In this document: positions 1 through 10,837 of the stretch, in pieces
Position numbering within the stretch: position 1 is the stretch's first letter
How the letters are laid out: every line of letters starts with the position of its first letter
Assembly (NCBI GenBank): GCA_051294375.1
Contig: JBJCIZ010001559.1
Coordinates: 1-10,837, forward strand
Direction: 5' to 3'
DNA length: 10,837 nt
Source of the DNA: Paraspadella gotoi
Taxonomy: Eukaryota; Animalia; Chaetognatha
Made by a program: the position numbers and the translations under genes
The notes under the pieces: generated by a model
What the model was told of the DNA's origin: nothing
Databases searched by the model: none
The model's input: the letters and a program-made list of their open reading frames with translations, nothing else

Positions 1-351
1 GTTGTTGAGCAAGAGAAAATTAAATAAATTCAAAAAACCTGCGGTCTTTTTAGAAAACCGCACTGTTCTTTCCGAGTGACAGGAACTGTAAACCGTTGCC
101 ATTTTCTTTAGAAGGATGATAGGACAAAATTGGTATTACTTTCTTAATTGACAAGACACGAATAAAACCTTCTAAGATTCTCAAAATTCGATTCATCACA
201 AAAAAGCCTCCACTCGGGCACCACCGTTTCCAACCCTGCCCTTCCTCCGCCGCTATGCTTAACGCGCTACCGCTTCCGCCCGCCCTTATAACCTGCTCGT
301 AACGCAGATGTGTAAACAAAACATTTTTACTGCGAATCCATTTTAAGCCGC

Positions 352-424
352 TTCTCTCTCTCTCTCCTCCTCTCCTCCTCTCTCTCATCTCTCTCTCTCT
401 CTCCTCGTTCTCTCTCTCTCTCTC
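352..424. repeat. Imperfect (TC)n microsatellite
   Basis: About 70 nt of TC dinucleotides with a few interruptions, read directly. It explains the ER-rich ORF 50..475(-). Confidence 0.95.
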
Positions 425-1399
425 TTCCTTTCTATGGCCCCATTTTGGAACGTCGTCGCCCGCAGGTTTGTTCATTCAATTATCATCGCGACGTTCCTAA
501 ACTGCGCAAAAGAGCGTCAACTCGCTCTCGCTTTGACAAGCAACAAAACCACTTGTCACCTTGCGGGGAATCATCATACTTTTTATGTTAGGTTACTTTT
601 GTATGTGTATTATGCGTACGCTATCGTGACTTTTCAATTTAAAAAAAAAAAAATTTTTAGGCCCATTACTACGGAGAATTCTAGATAATCTAAGTCTAGA
701 ATACAATACTGCTCTTTAAACTTTTGAATGACTGGTTCAGTCGTTTGTGTTTTATGTATCATGACATTGTTCATGTAAACTTTTCTCCCTAATTAACTTT
801 GCTTCACGCAACTGTTTCTTTCACTTCCTCTTCCTTTGCAGCCCCGTCCCTCCTTCGCTTTCTGCCTTCGCCCTTTTGTCGTTTCTCCTCTTTCCTCCTT
901 CTCCTCCTCCTCTCCTTTCTTCTTCCTCCCTGCCCTCCCCCTTCGTCCTCCCCGAGAAATTGCTTCCGTCGATGCCGGCGTGCTCCACTGGAGAGCTCTT
1001 ATTGCTTGTGATTGGGCTGTTAAACAAAATGAATAACAGGTGGATAATCTTCGGAGGAAGTTGCCTCGCGCTTGCGCCGTCGTCGCCGCCGCCGCGCTTC
1101 TCGTTCCGCGCGTCATCTTGCCTCCCTTTCACTATTCGCGCGCGCGTGGCCTTTTAACCCTTTCACAGAAATCACAGACTTTCTACGGGGACTTTGGTGA
1201 GAGACTCACGATTCCAAAATGGCACACCTCCTTTTCTTTTTTTTCCTTTCTTCTGGGCTTCTATCTCGCTTTCTATTCGAGCTTCCTCCACTCTCTTTCT
1301 TTCTTCTCTTTAGCCTGAAATTAGATTCTAACGCGCTCGCCTCTGATTTGCTATCCTCCCTTTGTCCTGATTTACTCCGAACCAGCAAAACCCCGAAAG

Positions 1400-1500
1400 T
1401 TCTCTCTCTGCTCTCTCTCTCTCTCCTTCTCTCTCTCTCTCGTCTCTCTCTCTCTCTCTCTCTCTCCTCTCTCTCTCCTCTCTCTCTCTCTCTGTCTCTC
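1400..1500. repeat. Imperfect (TC)n microsatellite
   Basis: About 100 nt TC tract with interruptions tctgctc, tccttctc and cgtctc. Confidence 0.95.
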
Positions 1501-1720: not shown

Positions 1721-2089
1721 CTGCGCTTAGTACAAACTCGTGTCACTCCAAAAAATTTCCACCTGATTCTTTGTGATTCCTCTTCCATTTTATGTTCCAT
1801 TTCGTATTTCTTTACTTTCTGCTCTTTTGCCTGTCCTTCGTTTTCTCTCCCTTTCTTTCTCCCGTTCTATTTTTTCCCTTTCTTCCCTTTTTCCTTTTTC
1901 ATTTTCCAGTCCTTTTTTCCTTCTTCTCTTCTCTCTCAGCCTCTTATCTCTCGAGATTTCGATCCCGAATCTCGAGGACGATAAAAATGCTAAACAAGGC
2001 CGCGGCGAATTAATCCGGGGGTCGGACTGCTGCCCCCAATTCAGATCCGGACCGGACTATTCAGTCCGGGGAGGAAAGACAAAGGAGCA

Positions 2090-2189
2090 AGAGTGAGAGA
2101 GAAGGAGAGTAGAGATAGAGAGAGACGAGAGAGACGAGAGGAGCGAGACGAAGAGAGGAGAGAAGGAGAGACCGAGAGAGCAGAGAGAG
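2090..2189. repeat. Imperfect (GA)n microsatellite, inverted relative of the 1400-1500 tract
   Basis: GA tract. 2174-2189 is the exact reverse complement of 1402-1417 (ctctctctgctctctc). Confidence 0.9.
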
Positions 2190-2619
2190 CTGGACAAAAC
2201 CAACAAATCTGGCGAGCGCAGAAAATCACGCCCGATATTAAAATCGAGGGAGGAGAAAATAGGACTGATTAGAGTTTAACTGTAGAGGGCTTGTAGGACA
2301 GATGAACTCTTGGTGAAAGGGAGGAAGAGAGTAGAACACGGTATAAAGGCTTGAATATATGGAATAACTTGAAAAATTAATCGATAATAAAAAAGAGTTA
2401 CAAGTTTTTTTCCGAAGAATCCATGATTAATCAATGTTTAAATATTTAAAATTACGCAGTAATCAGATAAAAAAATAAGTAATTAAGAAAAATTACCACG
2501 CGACGAATTAACATTCTTCTTTTAATCCAAATTTTTTCCATAAAACCAATTGTGTATCTCTTTCTTGATCTTTTGTTCATCCGACTCGTGTTTTTCTATT
2601 TCCTTTTCCTTTCTCATGT

Positions 2620-3660
2620 TATGCCTCCTCTTCTTCCATCCTCTTCCTTCATTCCAGTTTCCACCGTGACGACAACAGAGGCGGACGAAGACGATCACCA
2701 CGCCACCGTCTCCAGCTTCGTCACTGCGGTCTCCCCGAAAACGCTGCCGCCATCAACGCCCGTTGTGGGATGATGCCGACGCCTGATCAGTGTCCCAACA
2801 CCCCGCGTGTCCGGGTGCGGAACGCCTCAATTTCCTCTCTGCAACCGACCTGTTTGCGCCAGGACGATAGCATGTAGAAGAGCCGCCAACTAGACGACGC
2901 GCCGGACGCCGCCCCGGCGTGCCGAGACCAAAGGCCTTGACGCGCACAGCAACGCCGAAGCAGACGGCGTGCGACGCCGGCGCGCCAAGAGCAGCGAGAC
3001 GAGAAGTATGACCAGTGTTCGTCGCTGTGTCTCCAAAGAGGAAAGGTATAGAGATCAGGGCCTAAAGCGACAGAGGCGAGTAATAGGCGAGGCGGTGAGG
3101 GCTGGCTCTCGTGCTGCCGAGATTCCATGCCTTCAAGAGAAGAAGGGACGATGACCGTTCTGTTAGCCACAGCCCGATCTCAGCGGCAAGCGCGACGCCC
3201 GCAGAGATCGACAACCCCCGACGCAGTGTCGAATTAACAGCGCATGATGATCAGCGGCGCAGTAGAAAGAATCCGCGAACCGGCGAGGCGGAAAAGACGC
3301 CCGAGCGGGCAAGGCGTGTCGGCGGCGCGCCAGCAGAGATAAATGGCTTCCGTTGAGACGAGACCGAAGAATAGAGCGTAGACCACCAGACTCCTCGGCG
3401 TCCTCAATGGTCCCAATTGCCCAGGCGACTTTAGGAACACAAGCCGCCGCCAGAGTGACAGCCGTCTCTCCGACGAACAAGAGACGGAAGCCAGCTGGTC
3501 GATAGACATGTCACAAACCAATCGCGAAATGTTTGCTGCAGACCAGCTACGAGGACGACCGTAGAAGAGAGTTGAAGAGACAACTTCCCAACGCGAGCTG
3601 GAGATGACTGCGGTCTCAGTGCAGGGAACGTGCGGATGACGCGCTGAAGAAACAACATGC
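2620..3660 (+). other. GC/CpG-rich coding-like block with broken reading frames (disordered-protein exon, pseudogene or TE ORF remnant)
   Basis: Sharp composition shift from AT-rich flanks. Overlapping short + strand frames are rich in R/D/E/S/T/P (TTTEADEDDHH, RRRDDDRSVSHSPISAASATPAEID). No continuous ORF and no domain recognised. Confidence 0.3.
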
Positions 3661-4910
3661 AACATCGAATATTGGGGAATGGTGATGAAAAATACAGTCA
3701 TTGTAGCCACAGTGTGCAAAGAAAATTGCGCCAAACATTAGATTACAGACTTTGAAAATCAGCCAAAATATACTAGGGGTAGGCTAGTTTCTTTCTTTTT
3801 TTAAGAAAATCTTTTTTTCACGTAGCTGGTCACGTAACCAGACATCGCAGCTTATTATGTACCTTGACATGATGCATCTTAAAATTATTTTGATGATAGA
3901 TTAGACACAAAAAAAAATTGTGATAATATTTTTTCTGCCAGCCTGCGGTGATACAGCAAAATCTTAAAATTCTTAAAATCTGATAATAGCAGTCTTTTTA
4001 CCCTATGTCCAGTACGTTTTAAATCAGGTGGCACAACAAGTTTGAACTCCTAGATTTATCATATTTAAAATCATCTATGTTTTATAAGGTCCACATAGAA
4101 TTCTCTTAAACTTTTTTGTTCTTTTTCAACACCAAATGATAATCATATCCCTCAGTAATTGTATAAACATGAGGCATTAAACAATGTTCGCTATTTAATC
4201 AAAACCATAATTCAATCTTTTCTCTTTCAGTGCTATATATTTTATTTATCTTTTTAATGTGAGCCAAGTTTTTAATTTTATTTTCAAAAGCTTGTTAGAC
4301 TCTTGACTAAATTGCCGCATCAAGATTTACAAAAAAATGACTTTGAAACATTTTAAAAAAAATTATATGGAAAACATGACACCATAATTATGGCTTAATA
4401 TGAATACCATCTCATTACGTTCCTATCAATTCTTTGTTGACAGTAGGTCAAATTTTAAAAAACATTATTTTGAATCCGTTAAATCCATATTCATTAAATA
4501 ACCCTGACGACATCAAAGTGACGGAAGTCGTTCTTTATGTTTACCAAAAAAAAAAAGTAATTGATAATTTTTTATAATATCTAATCGATTTTCAATGAAA
4601 AAAAAAGCCTATTAAATATATTGCAGTGATCGTGAACAATGGTTTCGCAATTAATTTCTACATTTATCAAATTTATGTATTTTTATAATATTCTTTAAGT
4701 ATCTTTTATTCAGTGAGTAAAATAAAAACTTTTTAATTGCAAATTGTTTATCTGATGCTTAACGCCAGACTTCCCAGAACTATTACTTAGATTTTATGAA
4801 AAGTAAATTAAACTTTATTGAAAACAAATTAAACATTTTGCATAGATTTATAAAACTTGGTGCTAATTAGTTTAGTAGCTAGTTTATTTTTTAAAAATTG
4901 AAGTGCTATT

Positions 4911-5156
4911 TGTGGACGTAAAACCGAACAAACCGTTTTCATCAGCGGCCATTGTTGCGGAGGCAAAGTCATTCACCTCCCAACCCCAAAAGGGTCCGGG
5001 TGTCTAGTCGCTGAGTGGGGTCGTCTCGCAGTAAGAGACGGGCGAGTAGCGCACTAACCCGCTGTAACATGGTGTTACAGCCTGCATCCGAGCTCAGGAC
5101 TGCTTATAGTTGAACGTTCTACTCACTAACTCATAACAATATTTACTGTCTCTTCA
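4911..5156 (+). repeat. LTR copy 1
   Basis: Shares anchors with copies 2 and 3: aagtcattc, ggtccggg, tgttacagcct, ggactgcttata, aacaat. Confidence 0.8.
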
Positions 5157-5333
5157 TTAGCCGACTTCCGAAAACACACTGCCCAACAACAACACTTACA
5201 GGCGGACATGCCTCAAACCTGGCGATGCACTTTCCGGCCTCTCAACACATCAGCGACAATCCTCAACTTGGTGACGCACTTTTCACCAACAAATCAACAA
5301 TTCACTGAAGAGCGCAACAGTACATCTTCCTAC

Positions 5334-5340
5334 GGAGGGA
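5334..5340 (+). promoter_or_regulatory. Short polypurine tract before LTR2 (equivalent gatgggga at 5778-5785 before LTR3)
   Basis: G-rich purine run a few nt upstream of the LTR start, inside an otherwise C/A-rich spacer. Confidence 0.45.
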
Positions 5341-5344
5341 TGTA

Positions 5345-5588
5345 TGGTGGACTAAAACCCCACCAACCGTTCATACAGCTGGCCATTTGTGCCGCGAAGG
5401 CAAGTCATTCGCCTCCCACCCAAGAGGTCCGGGGTTCATAGCAGGGTGGTGGTCTGCAGCTTAAGAGGACTGTGTGCGCTGAATCCCGCCTGGTAAACAG
5501 TGGTGTTACAGCCTTGATCCGAAGCTCAGGACTGCTTATATTGAACGGTTTATCACTTAAACTCATAACAATAATTACTGTCTCTTCA
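5345..5588 (+). repeat. LTR copy 2
   Basis: Same anchors. Ends tctcttCA, followed by a 2-nt spacer and TGG. Confidence 0.8.
5381..5454 (+). ncRNA. tRNA-like segment inside the LTR (also ~4947-5022 and ~5833-5911); not called as a functional tRNA
   Basis: About 75 nt with ends able to pair (ggccat...gtggtc). Central attcgcctcccac resembles a tRNA-Gly(CCC) anticodon region. ggtccggggttcatagc resembles a T-arm/B-box (GGTTCRANNC). A-box is weak. Confidence 0.5.
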
Positions 5589-5590
5589 AT

Positions 5591-5610
5591 TGGTGAGCCC
5601 GAACTTCATT
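5591..5610 (+). promoter_or_regulatory. Primer-binding site, tRNA-Trp-like
   Basis: tggtgagcccgaacttcatt begins after a 2-nt spacer from the LTR-terminal CA. It resembles TGGTGACCCCGACGTGATT, the complement of a eukaryotic tRNA-Trp 3' end. The equivalent site after LTR1 (ttagccgactt, ~5157-5167) is degenerate. Confidence 0.6.
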
Positions 5611-5793
5611 CCGAGAAACAACCGAGCAAAACCGGAACACTTCAGCGCGAATGCCTCAACCTGCGATTGCACTTTCCCCCTCACACACATCAGCCGACAT
5701 CACTCAACTTGGATGACGATCCACTTCCACCAACAACAACAATTTATGAAGAGTACGCAACAGAAATCTTCCCTACCGATGGGGACTTGTTTA

Positions 5794-6047
5794 TGTGACT
5801 GAAAAGCCCCACCAAACACTCCGTTCATTCATGCGCCATGGTGCCCGGAGTGCAAGTCATTCGCGCTCCCAATCTCCAAAGGTCCGGGTGGTGTCAATAA
5901 GCCCGGTGGTCTTATCTCATTCAGAGGACGGCGGCGCTTAACCCGCCTAACATTGGATGTTACAGCCTGATCCGAAAGCTTCAAGGGACTGCTTATAGAA
6001 CGGGTTCTATCACTAACGCATGAAAACAATAATTACTTGTCTGTTCA
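5794..6047 (+). repeat. LTR copy 3
   Basis: Same anchors. Homology stops at ...gtctgttCA, the LTR end inferred independently from the PBS position in copy 2. Confidence 0.8.
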
Positions 6048-6052
6048 CTCAC

Positions 6053-6699
6053 TACAAAGCCTGAAATAAAAAAAAAATCTGATTACCTTTAAGATTAATC
6101 TTTTTTCTTTTAATTTTGTATTTTTTATGGGAGATTAAAAATTTTAAAAAAAAATTATACTGATCATCCGGAGGATTAGCTGATAACATATATTAACACC
6201 CATATCACGTAAATAATATTTTAAATTTATTAACACACACACAATTCTTAAAGTTTTTAAATAAAAATTAGATCTTACCTTCTCTGGTTTTTAAAACACT
6301 GCAACGTTTTTAAAATTATCATATATTGAACTACTCACCCCGCCAGTCAGAATTCTTTTCTTAACGACTTACTCCCCATCTAACCACTCCACAGTGACAT
6401 AATCGTCCAATTTACAAAATTGTACTCACTCCTAACCATCTGATATTTTTAACTATTTTTTGTTATTAATTACATTTTAAAATATCTATTATTGGAGTGA
6501 ATCACACTATACGTTCGCGTTTTTTTTTTTTTTTGCACATGACAGTATTCAGACGACATATCCAACCTAATGTTTTCCAAATTGACATTTCAAAAAACTT
6601 GACATAACCGTTACCATTTTTGCATTACGATGTTTTTTAATTTGCGAAACTACATCGTATATGACAAAACTTGTTCTTACCTTGTATTTATTCTGTGAC
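6053..6699 (-). other. Cluster of candidate micro-exons of a minus-strand host gene
   Basis: Minus strand: tttttag|19 nt (6699-6681)|gtaaga; atatcag|10 nt (6439-6430)|gtgagt; ttag|7 nt (6379-6373)|gtaagt; cag|20 or 5 nt (ending 6279)|gtaaga; tttttatttcag|8 nt (6060-6053)|gtgagt. Confidence 0.25.
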
Positions 6700-8642
6700 C
6701 TAAAAACGAATCCGTTTGTGAAGAAATCTATCTTGTTTTTGATGTGCAAATTTTTTTTCGCTGATCGATCTTGTCTTGTACTATTCTTTAAAAAACGGGA
6801 ATCAGATCAATGAAAGCTAATATGACCAACGTCGAGAATTTCTCTCTAAAGAAAATCTAAAACGGTTGAAAACTCCGACGAACGACTGGCCAGGGTCGTG
6901 ACAGTTGAGTTTGAGCGAATAATTGTTGGACCAAGATTCCTTTATGTCAATTTTATTTCCAAAAATAAAAAATAAAACCACAGTTATAAAAAAAATTGTT
7001 TTTCTACACGTATGAACCTCTAGGTCGATTTAATAACAACAGAAATCATCGATAATACTACTCTGGCAAGACAATTACTTACAGCCCTAGTCCTAGGTGG
7101 TTTTAATTTTGCACAGTCACGTTATGGAAAATAATTAATGAAAAAAAATTCGTTTTGAATGAAAAAATAATATTAAAAAATTCCGTGTACAACTGGTATT
7201 TTAGGACGAGTAAGTAAAAATTATGTAATTTATTGTAAGAATATTTTAAAGCCCTTTCAGATGAATCCATTTTCAATCATCGTAAGATGATTCATCTACG
7301 ACATAAGAACAAGTATAGTATTTTCATGTCAACTCGGCGGGAAAAGCAGAGTCTCGGTATCTTTTTCAAGAATATACACTCCAAAGAAATTCTCGCCGCT
7401 GCATTCTTGCACCAAACAACGGTGACAGATCCTGAAACAAGAACCTATAGACACGCTCCCGATTTATTTTCTCTTATTATCTTTCGTATCCAAAATAAAT
7501 ATTCAGGCTCATTTTTCACTCCGAATTATAGTTGAACAGAAGTTTATAATTCATTGTTTAACTGTTTATAATATTTCATCCATATATTTATATCTGCACC
7601 TTCACATTTCATCAACGCATGTATTCACATTCGCATGTACTTAAAAATAATATGCTATAAAGTTTAAGCGTCTTTAAATTTACCGTCCTTTCGTTTCTTA
7701 CAACTTTTCTAGCCAGATCACCGAGTTTCGCGATAGGGGATCAGGTTCCGGAGAATCGGCGCTTTTTTATGTATCTCGCCTCGATTCGAACGGCGAATTG
7801 CCCGTAATAATAGTATAAAAATGGCATATTTCGAAGCGCGTTGGCTGTCTTGAGGAAGCCCTGTGCCGCTGTGGAGGACTGAGAAAAAACTGGATCACTA
7901 CTTGATCATGAAAAACAATGACACTAATGTGGACTGTTTTACGGTGTTTTTGCTTCCTCATTCTTAGACTTGATCGTTCTACTCAACCAATGTTAATTAT
8001 TTTTTGTCCTTACACAGTATGATTAATTTCTCTGGCTAGACAGGGTGATCTTAACTTGTTTATATTTTTGCAATAGCTTGACTATGTTTAATTTTTAACA
8101 ATCAATAACTGCTTTTCGGCCATTAATTCGAACAATCACGCCGATAGTAGTTTTTTACTTTTTATTTTACCTTTCGGGCCAGAATTGCGGTTAATAGTTC
8201 TTTTTGTTTCTGTGCGCATGGAGCGCGCGAAAGATTTGGTCTGTTTTCCTTAAAAAAATCCGAAGTGAAAACAAAGGTGTTTTGTTTCGATAAACATTTT
8301 ATATGACACACCGAACGAAGCATAATGACTCTACCGCGAAAGGTCCCATAAATCCGGAAAGCCATGCCCTTGCGTCACGAGCAAACCGCGCGTTTCACGA
8401 AAAAGGGATTTTTGTAGGCTCTTTGTTTTGAAACATCATTCTCCTTGTGGTACTTTTTTTGATGAATGTGTTGATGCGTTTGTTTTATTCGATACAGCTT
8501 CTGTATTTTCTAGAGCTTGTTAAAGCTTGGAATTTCGGGCGAATGAATTCTCTTGCGGAAATAAAATTGAAACTGTTGTACGAATCTTACTAAATGGACT
8601 TAATGAAACAATAAACTTACATGAACTGTGCGATATTGGGAG

Positions 8643-9365
8643 ATGGAGATCCAGCGGCGACGCTTCGCCCCTTCCGCATACGACTTGACTCCTGGCCCAA
8701 TCACGCAGGGTCCTCCGTACTCTCTTAAGGGCCACTTCAAACTTCCCCTCGTCGCCGCCACCTCTTTTCACCCAGCGCCACGAATGAAGAGGAGTCCCTC
8801 TCAACCGGAACCGCTCAGGAAGGCGCGCTTCGCCCCTTGGGCCTCAACGAAGTCGTCTCGACGAATCCTCCGTCGGCTCCACGACGCTCCTCCAACCCTG
8901 AAAAATTCAAGCATCTCGCTTTCCACGCCTCCCACCCTCTCGTCCTTCTCCTACCCTCCACCTCCCCCCCCTTCTGCTCCGCCTGAAGAAGATGTCATTC
9001 CCTCCTCTCAGCCATTTCATCTTCAGGCCACCAGCGCCGTCGTCGTCGCTCAACTCCCTACGGTCAACTCCCATCCACGCTCTGCTAAGATCTTCCAGTC
9101 ACCACCTCCGCTCCTCGCGCCCCCTCCCCCAGCTTCCTCTTGCATCTACTGTCACAAGGTCGACATAAGCGGAAAGATCCGCTGCAACCAATGCCAAGGC
9201 TTCATCCACTCCGTTGCTTGCGCCAAATTTGAGAGTCATCGACAAGCCTCTTTCATGCCCTTCACTTGCCGACGATGCAACCCTCCAGTCTCTCTTCTCA
9301 GCTTCACCGCACTCCTGCCCGTAACCTGCGCATCGTCGTCAACGACATCTCTCCGCTCACATTGA
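8643..9365 (+). CDS. N-terminal part of the retroelement protein: Pro/Ser-rich region plus PHD-like zinc finger
   Basis: First ATG at 8643 within ORF 8628..9365. 9141-9278 encodes C-x2-C-x10-C-x2-C-x4-H-x3-C-x15-C-x2-C (C4HC3). Confidence 0.7.
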   Translation: MEIQRRRFAPSAYDLTPGPITQGPPYSLKGHFKLPLVAATSFHPAPRMKRSPSQPEPLRKARFAPWASTKSSRRILRRLHDAPPTLKNSSISLSTPPTLSSFSYPPPPPPSAPPEEDVIPSSQPFHLQATSAVVVAQLPTVNSHPRSAKIFQSPPPLLAPPPPASSCIYCHKVDISGKIRCNQCQGFIHSVACAKFESHRQASFMPFTCRRCNPPVSLLSFTALLPVTCASSSTTSLRSH

Positions 9366-10837
9366 TTCTCCCTCCAGATTCTCAGTCCCCCCCTCCTCCT
9401 TCCACTTCTCCTCCCTCTTTTTCCCCGCCTCCCCCTCTCTCCCACCCCCCACCCTTCACTCCCACCCTCACTCCCTCTCCCCCTTTTCTTCTCTCTATCG
9501 ATCCCTCTTCAGCACACGCATTCCTCTTCTCCGCATTCCCACATCAGCAAGAGGGAATGCGCTCCCTCACCAATCTGTTTGGTCCGACGTACTTCGCGAC
9601 CCACAAATGTCGTCAAGTGGACAAGGCGCTCTCCGCAGCCAACTTATCTTCCTTCATCCCCGCCGGTAAAAAGAAATTCAGAAAATCAGCCACGGTCAAG
9701 CAGCGGATCTCCCCACTCCATCTGACGGCCGCCTCGGACCGCATCTTCTGGAATCTCTGGAGTCAAGCCACCCGTCGGCGACGTCAACACGCTCCCTCCA
9801 CCGAATCTCAAGCCAGCAACAATGTCCGCCGTGCTACCTCCTTTGCCCAAGAGGGGCACTACGGGCAAGCCGCCAAAGCGCTTAGATCCCAAGGCCTTGA
9901 TTTTGACTCAGCCCAAGCCCTCTCAAATATGCAATCCCTCCACCCTTCTTCTCCCCCTCCTCCTCCCCAGCCTCCCCCCCCAGCCTCTGCCTACCAATTT
10001 TCCTCCTCCGAAACTCTGGAAGCCCTTAACTCCTTCCACTCTCTCTCTGCCGGGGGACCATCTGGTCTCCGCCCCGCCCATCTACGCGAAGGCATATCCT
10101 CTGATTACGGCAATGCCCTCCTCTCCACATTGACACGGGTCATCAATCTGCTGGCCTCAGGTCTTATCCCTCCTGTCATTTCTCCCTTTCTTTGTGGAGG
10201 CAACCTTTTCGCCGCGTCGAAAAAATCCGGCGGACACCGACCAATTGCAGTCGGCGAATCCCTACGGCGTTGGACAGCCAAATGTGTTAGCAAAAAGTCG
10301 ATAGCCGACACCGCCGAATACCTTTCCCCCCTTCAGCTCGGCGTCGGTGTCAAAAACAGCGCGGAAGCTATCATCCACGCAGCCAACTCCATTTTTAACG
10401 ACGACAACATCCCAGTGCAGAACAAATGGGTTCTCCAAATCGATTTCTCCAACGCCTTCAACCGCATCAGCCGCGAAGAAATGCTCAAAGAAATCCGAAT
10501 CCACTGCCCCAAAGCTTCTGCCTGGGCCGAGCTGTGCTACGCCAGCCCCTCTCACCTCTTCTTTGGTCAATCACGCATCTCTAGCTCCTCTGGGGCACAA
10601 CAGGGTGACCCTTTAGGCTCTCTCTTTTTCGCCCTTGTCCTTCAACCGCTCCTACACCGCCTTAAGTCTAAACTTCCTGATCTCCTCCTCAACGTCTGGT
10701 TCTTGGATGACGGCACCATCATCGGCACGAAGGAAGATCTCCAATGCGCTTTCGACTTCTTCATCCAACATGGTCCCGCTGCGGGTCTGTTCCTGAACCC
10801 CGGCAAATCCTTAGTCTGGTGCGGCGGCGATCTGCCA
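9233..10837 (+). CDS. Reverse transcriptase ORF (3'-partial)
   Basis: Manual translation: frame open from after the TGA at 9230-9232 to the window end. Motifs RPIAVGE (10238), DFSNAFN (10442), QQGDPLG (10598-10618), WFLDDG (10697-10714) and GLFLNPGKS. Recognisable in this frame from ~9700 onward. Confidence 0.93.

What the first reader, a model, noticed from the sequence alone, without database searches (positions are those of the whole stretch)
5381..5454. Each LTR contains a tRNA-like module: candidate Pol III-driven LTR element
Seen: about 35-40 nt into all three LTRs lies a ~75-nt segment with pairing ends, a Gly(CCC)-like anticodon region and a B-box-like ggttca motif (clearest in copy 2). 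Known: Cassandra TRIMs carry 5S-derived sequence in their LTRs. From memory, TRIMs with tRNA-like LTRs have been described as Helenus (verify). Inference: a SINE/LTR hybrid in which an internal Pol III promoter in one LTR transcribes into the next. Consistent with this, I see no run of five or more T between the tRNA-like start at ~4947 and the end of the array, in a genome otherwise full of T-runs.
Basis: partly seen in the sequence, partly recalled or inferred. Interest (0 to 1): 0.8.

Follow-up and report, generated by a model that had tools for sequence, protein, structure and literature searches.

The report
tRNA-plus-twister miniature LTR retroelement
A tiny protein-free jumping element sits here as a three-repeat tandem, and each end repeat carries a worn tRNA-like segment followed at once by a predicted self-cutting "twister" RNA fold, so its RNA would likely be cut into a roughly 430-460-base unit that could close into a circle, a design I found described only for plant elements with a different ribozyme.

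Summary
The array 4911-6047 is LTR-internal-LTR-internal-LTR (LTR ~245 nt, internal ~195 nt), with TG..CA ends, a tRNA-Trp-type primer site and purine tracts: a TRIM. The copies are 70-78% identical and indel-dominated, which looks like read error.

The tRNA-like segment is real but weak. ARAGORN, Rfam and my tRNA covariance model find nothing. A sequence-only tRNA profile picks copy 2 as the window's best hit (E 0.01); joint test 25 of 1,938 nulls. GGTTCA occurs in 1 of 3 copies, and the lack of T5 runs is expected by chance. That much is Helenus-like (Kojima 2024).

A descriptor places it in the same register in 3 of 3 LTRs (0 of 15,868 null triples for the final, post-hoc version; 12 of 4,820 for the first). 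Covariance models do not confirm it, and P2 is weak. Predicted cuts release 426- and 458-nt units, which fits a retrozyme-like circle.

The scan reported this design earlier on four other pieces of the same genome; that was my lead. No further copies, reads or RNA were available.

The parts
4911..5156 (+). LTR1 (TG...CA), 246 nt
4947..5022 (+). tRNA-like segment, copy 1 (weak; ends pair 5 of 7; no GGTTC)
5028..5103 (+). predicted P5-type twister, copy 1: GA 5037-38, T2 CGG 5039-41, UAA 5055-57 (predicted cut 5055/5056), T1 GC 5061-62, 7-bp P3 hairpin 5063-79, L4 5087-93 (one A only), P4 3' strand 5094-98, P5 5028-32 with 5099-5103
   Evidence: score 35.0; 3 of 39,930 single nulls; P5 read from the sequence
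5157..5344 (+). internal region 1, non-coding; primer site degraded in this copy
5334..5340 (+). purine tract before LTR2
5345..5588 (+). LTR2 (start uncertain by a few bases: 5341-5346)
5381..5454 (+). tRNA-like segment, copy 2 (the finding): ends pair 7 of 7, B-box-like GGTTCA at 5433; predicted Pol III promoter
5456..5535 (+). predicted P5-type twister, copy 2: GA 5468-69, cut predicted 5481/5482, GC 5488-89, full consensus-type L4 5518-25; T2 has one mismatch
   Evidence: score 32.4; 37 of 39,930; P4/L4 part only, E 0.18
5589..5793 (+). internal region 2, non-coding
5590..5602 (+). primer-binding site, tRNA-Trp type (12 of 13 letters equal to the Trp PBS of Gypsy-32_NVi and Helenus-2_SyJa)
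   Evidence: compared by eye
5778..5785 (+). purine tract before LTR3 (interrupted by one T)
5794..6047 (+). LTR3 (TG...CA; the end may be 6047 or 6051)
5834..5914 (+). tRNA-like segment, copy 3 (weakest; not above chance on its own)
5917..5992 (+). predicted P5-type twister, copy 3: GA 5927-28, T2 CGG 5929-31, UAA 5939-41 (cut predicted 5939/5940), GC 5945-46, L4 5971-79 (three A)
   Evidence: score 31.0; 87 of 39,930

Best explanation
This is a non-coding miniature LTR retrotransposon in a three-LTR tandem whose LTRs each hold a degenerate tRNA-like segment, likely a Pol III promoter, followed directly by a predicted P5-type twister ribozyme that would cut the transcript once per LTR and release a unit of about 430-460 nt, likely circularised and copied by a helper Gypsy element. 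Shown by the sequence: the LTR-internal-LTR-internal-LTR layout, TG..CA ends, a Trp-type primer site, purine tracts and no coding frame. Supported statistically but not by standard models: the tRNA-like segment and the twister-like fold. [quoted passage not shown]
For: Anatomy. PBS; animal Helenus share PBS types with Gypsy (PMC10886601). Twister template: the RF02684 consensus printed, and 51 natural P5-type motifs kept of 327 pattern matches. Ten of the 51 have a 19-27-nt linker that by eye holds a P3 hairpin, as here. Phage locus L319 has the same CCG/CGG pseudoknot and the same L4 letters and scores 34.1 bits on RF02684. Features per copy: general-base GA 3 of 3; the two A after the cut 3 of 3; T1 GC/GC 3 of 3; CCG in L4 3 of 3 with a full CGG partner in 2 of 3; P4 closed by A-U in 3 of 3 where the consensus has G-C; a P3 hairpin in 3 of 3. 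Joint descriptor score 98.4: reached by 0 of 13,310 and 0 of 2,558 null triples (shuffled LTR plus matched noise). Natural P3-bearing twisters put through the same noise give a median of 100.7, and 69 of 150 score at or below the observed value. All three LTRs outscore all 118 background tiles (31.0-35.0 vs max 30.1), and their minus strands score 19-21. P1 and P2 defects are tolerated in tested twisters (PMC11662667 section 32). The circle model is that of plant LTR retrozymes (PMC4918200 passages). By eye, the published Helenus-2_SyJa/SyUm LTRs hold a type III hammerhead after their tRNA-like part.
Against: Rfam gives no twister match on the window or on LTR1 alone. My 48-sequence twister covariance model gives only a partial match in LTR2 (8.6 bits, E 0.18), below a chance hit at 3362-3426 (9.2 bits). 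The descriptor was refined after I had seen the sequence. The first version gave 29.0, 28.4 and 21.7; LTR3 fell off register, 2 of 118 background tiles beat the best LTR, and 12 of 4,820 null triples reached the sum. P2 is poor in all three copies (scores -2.0, -1.3, +2.0) and P1 is absent in two. No single copy has every core feature. In LTR3 the lowest-energy fold pairs GGCGG with CCGCC, which would block the twister. The predicted circles fold no better than shuffles (z -0.18, +0.56). The A and B boxes are degenerate. An invariant CTTATA after the fold in 3 of 3 LTRs could be a Pol II TATA box. No clear target-site duplication. The three copies share one ancestor, so there is no covariation evidence.
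Confidence: 0.55

Rival explanations
1. An ordinary Helenus-type TRIM (TRIMp3): the tRNA-like segment likely drives Pol III read-through, the RNA stays linear with LTR redundancy and is copied by normal strand transfer, and the twister-like fold is inactive or coincidental.
For: All Helenus anatomy is present. Tandem arrays of LTR-11_DR are reported. Covariance models do not call a twister, and P2 is weak.
Against: The twister descriptor is significant in all three versions tried. Most animal Helenus LTRs seen end a few dozen bases after the tRNA-like part, often through a T-rich stretch; here ~135 nt follow with no T4.
Confidence: 0.25
2. A Pol II TRIM: CTTATA is likely the TATA box, the last ~25 nt are R-U5, and the tRNA-like part (with or without the ribozyme) is a relic SINE head sitting in U3.
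For: GGACTGCTTATA is invariant in 3 of 3 LTRs, ~50 nt before the LTR end. The tRNA signal is far below that of real tRNAs under the same noise (22.5 vs 49-149 in-sample). B box in 1 of 3 copies. A plant retrozyme LTR holds its own promoter (PMC9695139, abstract start).
Against: A Pol II RNA starting after the twister would be cut in the next LTR, lose its 3' repeat and keep a cap, so it could neither jump nor circularise if the twister is active. ACTGC in that motif is also the P5 strand. No AATAAA in the LTR ends.
Confidence: 0.13
3. Not an LTR element but 2.5 units of a tandem SINE-like or non-LTR retrozyme repeat moved by a LINE or Penelope element.
For: The array is formally A-B-A-B-A; no clear TSD; internal region 1 lacks a readable PBS. 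Twisters serve non-LTR elements (PMC8501958 abstract).
Against: A Trp-type PBS 1-2 nt after a TG..CA repeat, purine tracts before the next repeats, and array ends exactly at repeat ends. Animal non-LTR retrozymes lack LTR, PBS and PPT (PMC7761336 passages).
Confidence: 0.07

Closest known systems
Helenus / TRIMp3 (Kojima 2024, PMC10886601), especially Helenus-2_SyJa and Helenus-2_SyUm of Synergus wasps
   Same: [quoted passage not shown] The Synergus families also have the tRNA-like part in the 5' half of a long LTR, a Trp PBS and a similar PPT-LTR junction, and by my eye a type III hammerhead after the tRNA-like part, which the paper does not mention.
   Different: No sequence relationship seen: five of six motifs had 0 hits in the supplement; the sixth, gcctcccac, hit only fish Helenus tRNA parts. 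The boxes are more degenerate here. The fold is twister-type; 'twister' has 0 occurrences in the paper.
Plant LTR retrozymes (Cervera et al. 2016, PMC4918200)
   Same: Non-autonomous LTR element with a ribozyme in each LTR, PBS and PPT, Gypsy-dependent; two, three or four ribozymes in tandem; unit defined cut to cut.
   Different: Type III hammerhead, tRNA-Met PBS, ~350-bp LTRs, 600-1000-nt units, plants; no tRNA-like module in the passages read; cleavage and circles shown experimentally.
Twister ribozyme type P5 (Rfam RF02684)
   Same: Order P2-GA-T2-P1-UAA-P2-GC-(P3)-P4-L4-P4; L4 of the form U-NNN-AA-GC; both pseudoknots.
   Different: Three-base P2 strand with mismatches, short or missing P1, A-U closing P4; below any Rfam threshold in these noisy copies.
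Cassandra and Ajax TRIMs
   Same: Small-RNA-derived segment in TRIM LTRs; tandem arrays.
   Different: 5S-derived; Cassandra terminates in the next LTR, whereas no terminator exists here.
Twister variants at the 5' end of Perere-3 (Schistosoma; PMC8501958) and animal non-LTR retrozymes (PMC7761336; bioRxiv 10.64898/2026.07.22.740005)
   Same: Self-cleaving motifs that define the ends of animal retroelement RNA.
   Different: Non-LTR elements without PBS or PPT; retrozymes there use type I hammerheads and Penelope helpers.

Membership tests
TRIM / Helenus | Two LTRs with TG..CA ends around a short non-coding internal part, under 1 kb | tested here: met
   one LTR-internal-LTR unit is ~680-700 nt; the stop-to-stop frames of 103 and 118 aa there were not searched
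TRIM / Helenus | PBS complementary to a tRNA 3' end just after the LTR | tested here: met
   5590-5602, 12 of 13 equal to the Trp PBS in Fig. S2; readable in 1 of 2 internal regions
TRIM / Helenus | Polypurine tract before the 3' LTR | tested here: met
   5334-5340 and 5778-5785, short
TRIM / Helenus | 4-bp (animal) or 5-bp target-site duplication | tested here: inconclusive
   Flanks differ at the nominal ends; CTAT vs CTAC if the ends are shifted; noisy sequence
TRIM / Helenus | tRNA-like sequence in the LTR | tested here: inconclusive
   Sequence profile positive (E 0.01; 25 of 1,938); structure models negative; models were prokaryotic
TRIM / Helenus | Box A (TRGCY..YGG) and box B (GGTTC) conserved | tested here: inconclusive
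   GGTTC in 1 of 3 copies; A box 2-4 substitutions; error rate too high to decide
TRIMp3 | Transcribed by Pol III | not testable with these tools
   no RNA holder listed; unvalidated for Helenus too
TRIM / Helenus | Dispersed multi-copy family, solo LTRs | not testable with these tools
   no genome held
Twister ribozyme, type P5 | Catalytic A after the cut, second A, and general-base G with following A | tested here: met
   3 of 3 copies
Twister ribozyme, type P5 | Pseudoknots T1 (2 bp) and T2 (3 bp) | tested here: met
   T1 3 of 3; T2 complete in 2 of 3, 2 of 3 pairs in LTR2
Twister ribozyme, type P5 | Stems P1, P2, P4 | tested here: inconclusive
   P4 present with bulges; P2 poor in 3 of 3; P1 in 1 of 3
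Twister ribozyme, type P5 | Match to RF02684/RF03160 covariance models | tested here: not met
   own model R1 E 0.18, partial
Twister ribozyme, type P5 | Site-specific self-cleavage | not testable with these tools
   needs an in vitro assay
LTR retrozyme (plant definition) | Hammerhead ribozyme in each LTR | tested here: not met
   no hammerhead match; the fold is twister-type
LTR retrozyme (plant definition) | Circular RNA of unit length accumulates | not testable with these tools
   no RNA data
Cassandra / Ajax | 5S rRNA-derived LTR segment | tested here: not met
   no RF00001 match at E<=10

The most novel reading that the evidence does not exclude
Animals have their own LTR retrozymes: a Pol III tRNA-derived promoter fused to a self-cleaving ribozyme inside each LTR (twister here, hammerhead in the Synergus Helenus families). 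The ribozyme replaces both the terminator and the R repeat, giving a ~440-nt circular RNA that a Gypsy element copies into solo, full or tandem forms. The ribozyme slot is interchangeable, and part of 'Helenus' actually runs on a circular-RNA cycle.
Probability: 0.45. Interest if true: 0.8.

Novelty: new variant of a known kind. Interest (0 to 1): 0.6.

Why it matters
The tRNA-in-LTR feature alone is known (Helenus, 2024). The addition of a twister would join two element kinds thought separate, animal TRIMp3 and plant LTR retrozymes. It would give twister a role in LTR retrotransposition, where the papers I saw tie it only to non-LTR elements, and predict a new source of small circular RNAs in animals. 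It also explains how a Pol III LTR element can work without a terminator and why shared-LTR tandems form. It is cheap to test: a ~75-nt in vitro cleavage and a divergent RT-PCR.

Tried and rejected
No whole genome is held, so copy number, solo LTRs and TSDs could not be examined. Sequencing runs: none was listed, no RNA holder listed; this is no evidence either way. Metagenome motif scan: 120 loci, none related to the array (best blastn E 0.098). A motif specific to this element found 0 stretches in viral contigs. The tRNA-like segment against phage records gave 2 chance hits. Sequence look-ups in earlier findings found no look-alikes; noise could hide them. The genome contigs twister scan (120 loci) was essentially chance matches; three of those genomes then served as the tRNA source. 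Model R2 was built with a structure string off by one column and was not used; R3 used the corrected string, 97.8% of cells paired. From the 51 natural twisters I left out 3 near-duplicates (L357, L358, L489) before alignment A1. By eye I first tried hammerhead, HDV-like and P1-type twister readings and an L4 at TGTTACAGC, and dropped them: that stretch is the 3' arm of the P3 hairpin, and no CUGAUGA/GAAA core is present. T-run depletion as evidence for Pol III was rejected. Stable folding of the tRNA-like parts, the twister regions and the circles was not shown. Old age as the cause of divergence is not favoured but not excluded: indel events equal or exceed substitutions under two of three scorings (21-34 events vs 8-38 substitutions), transitions are about a third or fewer of substitutions, CpG is kept, and the RT frame 4 kb away is open for 535 codons.

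Full report
Anatomy. A GC-balanced island (50% GC) lies in 26-29% GC flanks. It aligns to itself one unit on (4912-5588 vs 5347-6047, 73.8%, E 3e-90) and resolves into LTR1 4911-5156, internal 5157-5344, LTR2 ~5345-5588, internal 5589-5793 and LTR3 ~5794-6047. The repeats begin TG and end CA. One to two bases after LTR2 lies a 13-mer that equals the tRNA-Trp primer site of Gypsy-32_NVi and Helenus-2_SyJa at 12 of 13 positions (by eye); the same place after LTR1 is garbled. Short purine tracts precede LTR2 and LTR3. A target-site duplication cannot be called. This is a TRIM in a shared-LTR tandem.

Sequence quality. The copies differ by 21-34 indel events, mostly of one base, and 8-38 substitutions per pair, with few transitions and CpG kept. 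The RT frame at 9233-10837 is open for 535 codons. I infer uncorrected long-read error local to the repeat, though old age is not excluded. Every motif test below is therefore on damaged text. No genome and no sequencing run was available.

The tRNA-like segment. ARAGORN finds nothing. Rfam finds no tRNA at E<=10 on the window or on 161-base pieces of each LTR. A covariance model of 73 prokaryotic tRNAs gives 4 hits of E 1.6-8, none in the proposed register. Sequence alone does better. nhmmer's best hit in 21,674 residues is 5405-5437, profile positions 24-56 (9.3 bits, E 0.01). A glocal profile ends at 5021, 5455 and 5914, the homologous spots, and the joint score of 22.5 is reached by 25 of 1,938 null triples; real tRNAs under the same noise score 49-149 (5th-95th percentile, in-sample). 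Acceptor-like ends pair 7 of 7 in copy 2 and 5 of 7 in the others. GGTTCA is in copy 2 only, and the A box needs 2-4 substitutions. So it is a SINE-head-like relic, not a tRNA gene. The absence of T5 runs is expected by chance (P 0.44-0.57); other GC-rich blocks of the window have 0, 1 and 2 such runs.

Helenus. I read main-text parts 1-5 of 6, passages and supplement parts 1 and 5-10 of 11; parts 2-4 (fungal families) and 11 I did not read, but all were searched for six motifs. Helenus is any TRIM with a tRNA-like LTR segment; animal families make 4-bp TSDs and share PBS types with Gypsy; Pol III use is unvalidated. No family matches this one in sequence. Closest in layout are Helenus-2_SyJa and -2_SyUm: Trp PBS, tRNA-like part early in a long LTR. 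In their printed LTRs I see by eye a complete type III hammerhead downstream of the tRNA-like part, with the CUGAUGA and GAAA core, three stems and complementary loops. The paper mentions hammerheads only in a reference title and twister not at all.

The twister lead. Four unreviewed notes on other pieces of this genome report twisters behind or within the LTRs of similar mini-elements, with units of 413, 422 and 488 nt. I took that as a lead and tested it here. To get a template from tools I scanned viral contigs, confirmed one hit on RF02684 (L319, 34.1 bits, E 6.7e-5, below the 37.6 cut-off) and kept 51 well-paired motifs of 327 matches. In each LTR, 2-6 nt after the tRNA-like end, the P5-type order appears: GA, CGG, a short P1, UAA, CCC, GC, a P3 hairpin, P4, and a loop U-CCG-AA-GC. 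The GA, the two A after the cut, T1 and the CCG are in 3 of 3 copies. T2 is complete in 2 of 3. The L4 A-run reads 1, 2 and 3 A, as homopolymer error would give. P4 is closed by A-U in all three. P2 is poor throughout and P1 is clear only in LTR1.

Strength of that evidence. Against: Rfam is silent. My covariance model of 48 phage twisters finds only the P4/L4 end in LTR2 (E 0.18), below a chance hit elsewhere; such models ignore pseudoknots and treat P3 as an insertion, and I could not run a noise control on it. The first descriptor scored 29.0, 28.4 and 21.7, and 2 of 118 background tiles beat the best LTR. For: the summed score was significant under a null of shuffled LTRs copied three times with matched noise in every version, 12 of 4,820, 3 of 3,098, and 0 of 13,310 plus 0 of 2,558. 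The last version, which allows three A in L4 and requires a hairpin in long linkers, was set after I had seen the sequence. Under it all three LTRs fall in the same register and beat all 118 tiles, and natural P3-bearing twisters with the same noise give a median of 100.7 against the observed 98.4. Tested natural twisters tolerate P1, P2 and P4 defects but not loss of the pseudoknots or catalytic bases (PMC11662667, section 32 read whole; passages). I put a genuine twister at about 0.7.

Mechanism. The predicted cuts (5055/5056, 5481/5482, 5939/5940) release units of 426 and 458 nt that hold the PBS and PPT but have no terminal repeat. In plant retrozymes that situation is resolved by circularisation, and reverse transcription round the circle is proposed to give solo, full and multimeric forms (PMC4918200, passages). 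An upstream tRNA-type promoter fits, since the leader is cut off and no terminator is needed; the unit has none (first T>=5 at 6101). All of these steps are inferred. The circles show no special stability, which noise may or may not explain. The invariant CTTATA leaves a Pol II reading open.

What is in print. Six searches returned plant LTR retrozymes with hammerheads, animal non-LTR retrozymes without LTR, PBS or PPT (PMC7761336, passages; bioRxiv 10.64898/2026.07.22.740005, abstract and passages, supplements not seen), and twisters at the 5' ends of non-LTR elements (PMC8501958, abstract and outline). None of the listings or passages describes a twister in an LTR or an animal LTR retrozyme. 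The library lacks most subscription papers and Repbase Reports.

Verdict. The likely twister makes it a new variant joining Helenus and LTR retrozymes, seen before by this scan in cleaner copies elsewhere in this genome.

Noticed in passing
PMC10886601 Data S1, Helenus-2_SyJa-LTR and Helenus-2_SyUm-LTR: By eye, a complete type III hammerhead ribozyme with complementary loops 1 and 2 lies downstream of the tRNA-like part; the paper does not mention it, so these published wasp families may be animal LTR retrozymes.
   Followed up: partly
window 8625-10837 +: Non-LTR retrotransposon (CRE-like by recall of its motifs): PHD-like finger at ~9140-9290 in frame +3 (Pfam PHD E 0.36; matches homologues) and RT in frame +2 (PF00078 E 5e-15; top relatives 64-70% identical). 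Homologues carry both in one protein, so there is a frame change between ~9296 and ~9440.
   Followed up: partly
window 2650-3750: GC-rich (58%) block with broken minus-strand frames, probably a decayed element; no Pfam match for four frames tried and no tblastn match to the 120 RT relatives.
   Followed up: partly
window 350-430, 1400-1500 (+) and 2085-2190 (-): CT/AG microsatellite tracts, the last two in inverted orientation ~580 nt apart.
   Followed up: no
window 7963-8004 +: 42-nt stretch 71% like the LTR 3' part at 5103-5144 (E 0.04); probably chance.
   Followed up: no
window 5934-5948 vs Ajax LTRs: LTR3 shares an 11-letter stretch (CTTAACCCGCC) with the part of both Ajax LTRs upstream of their 5S segment; likely coincidence.
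   Followed up: no
L399, L421, L438, L442, L446, L450, L452, L455 (viral contigs): Phage contigs with 2-4 twister-P5 pattern matches spaced ~270-590 nt apart.
   Followed up: no
L279 150-223: One stretch matches twister-P1 (30.9 bits) and twister-P5 (24.6 bits) in overlapping registers, with a GA-CGG strand on both sides of the core.
   Followed up: no
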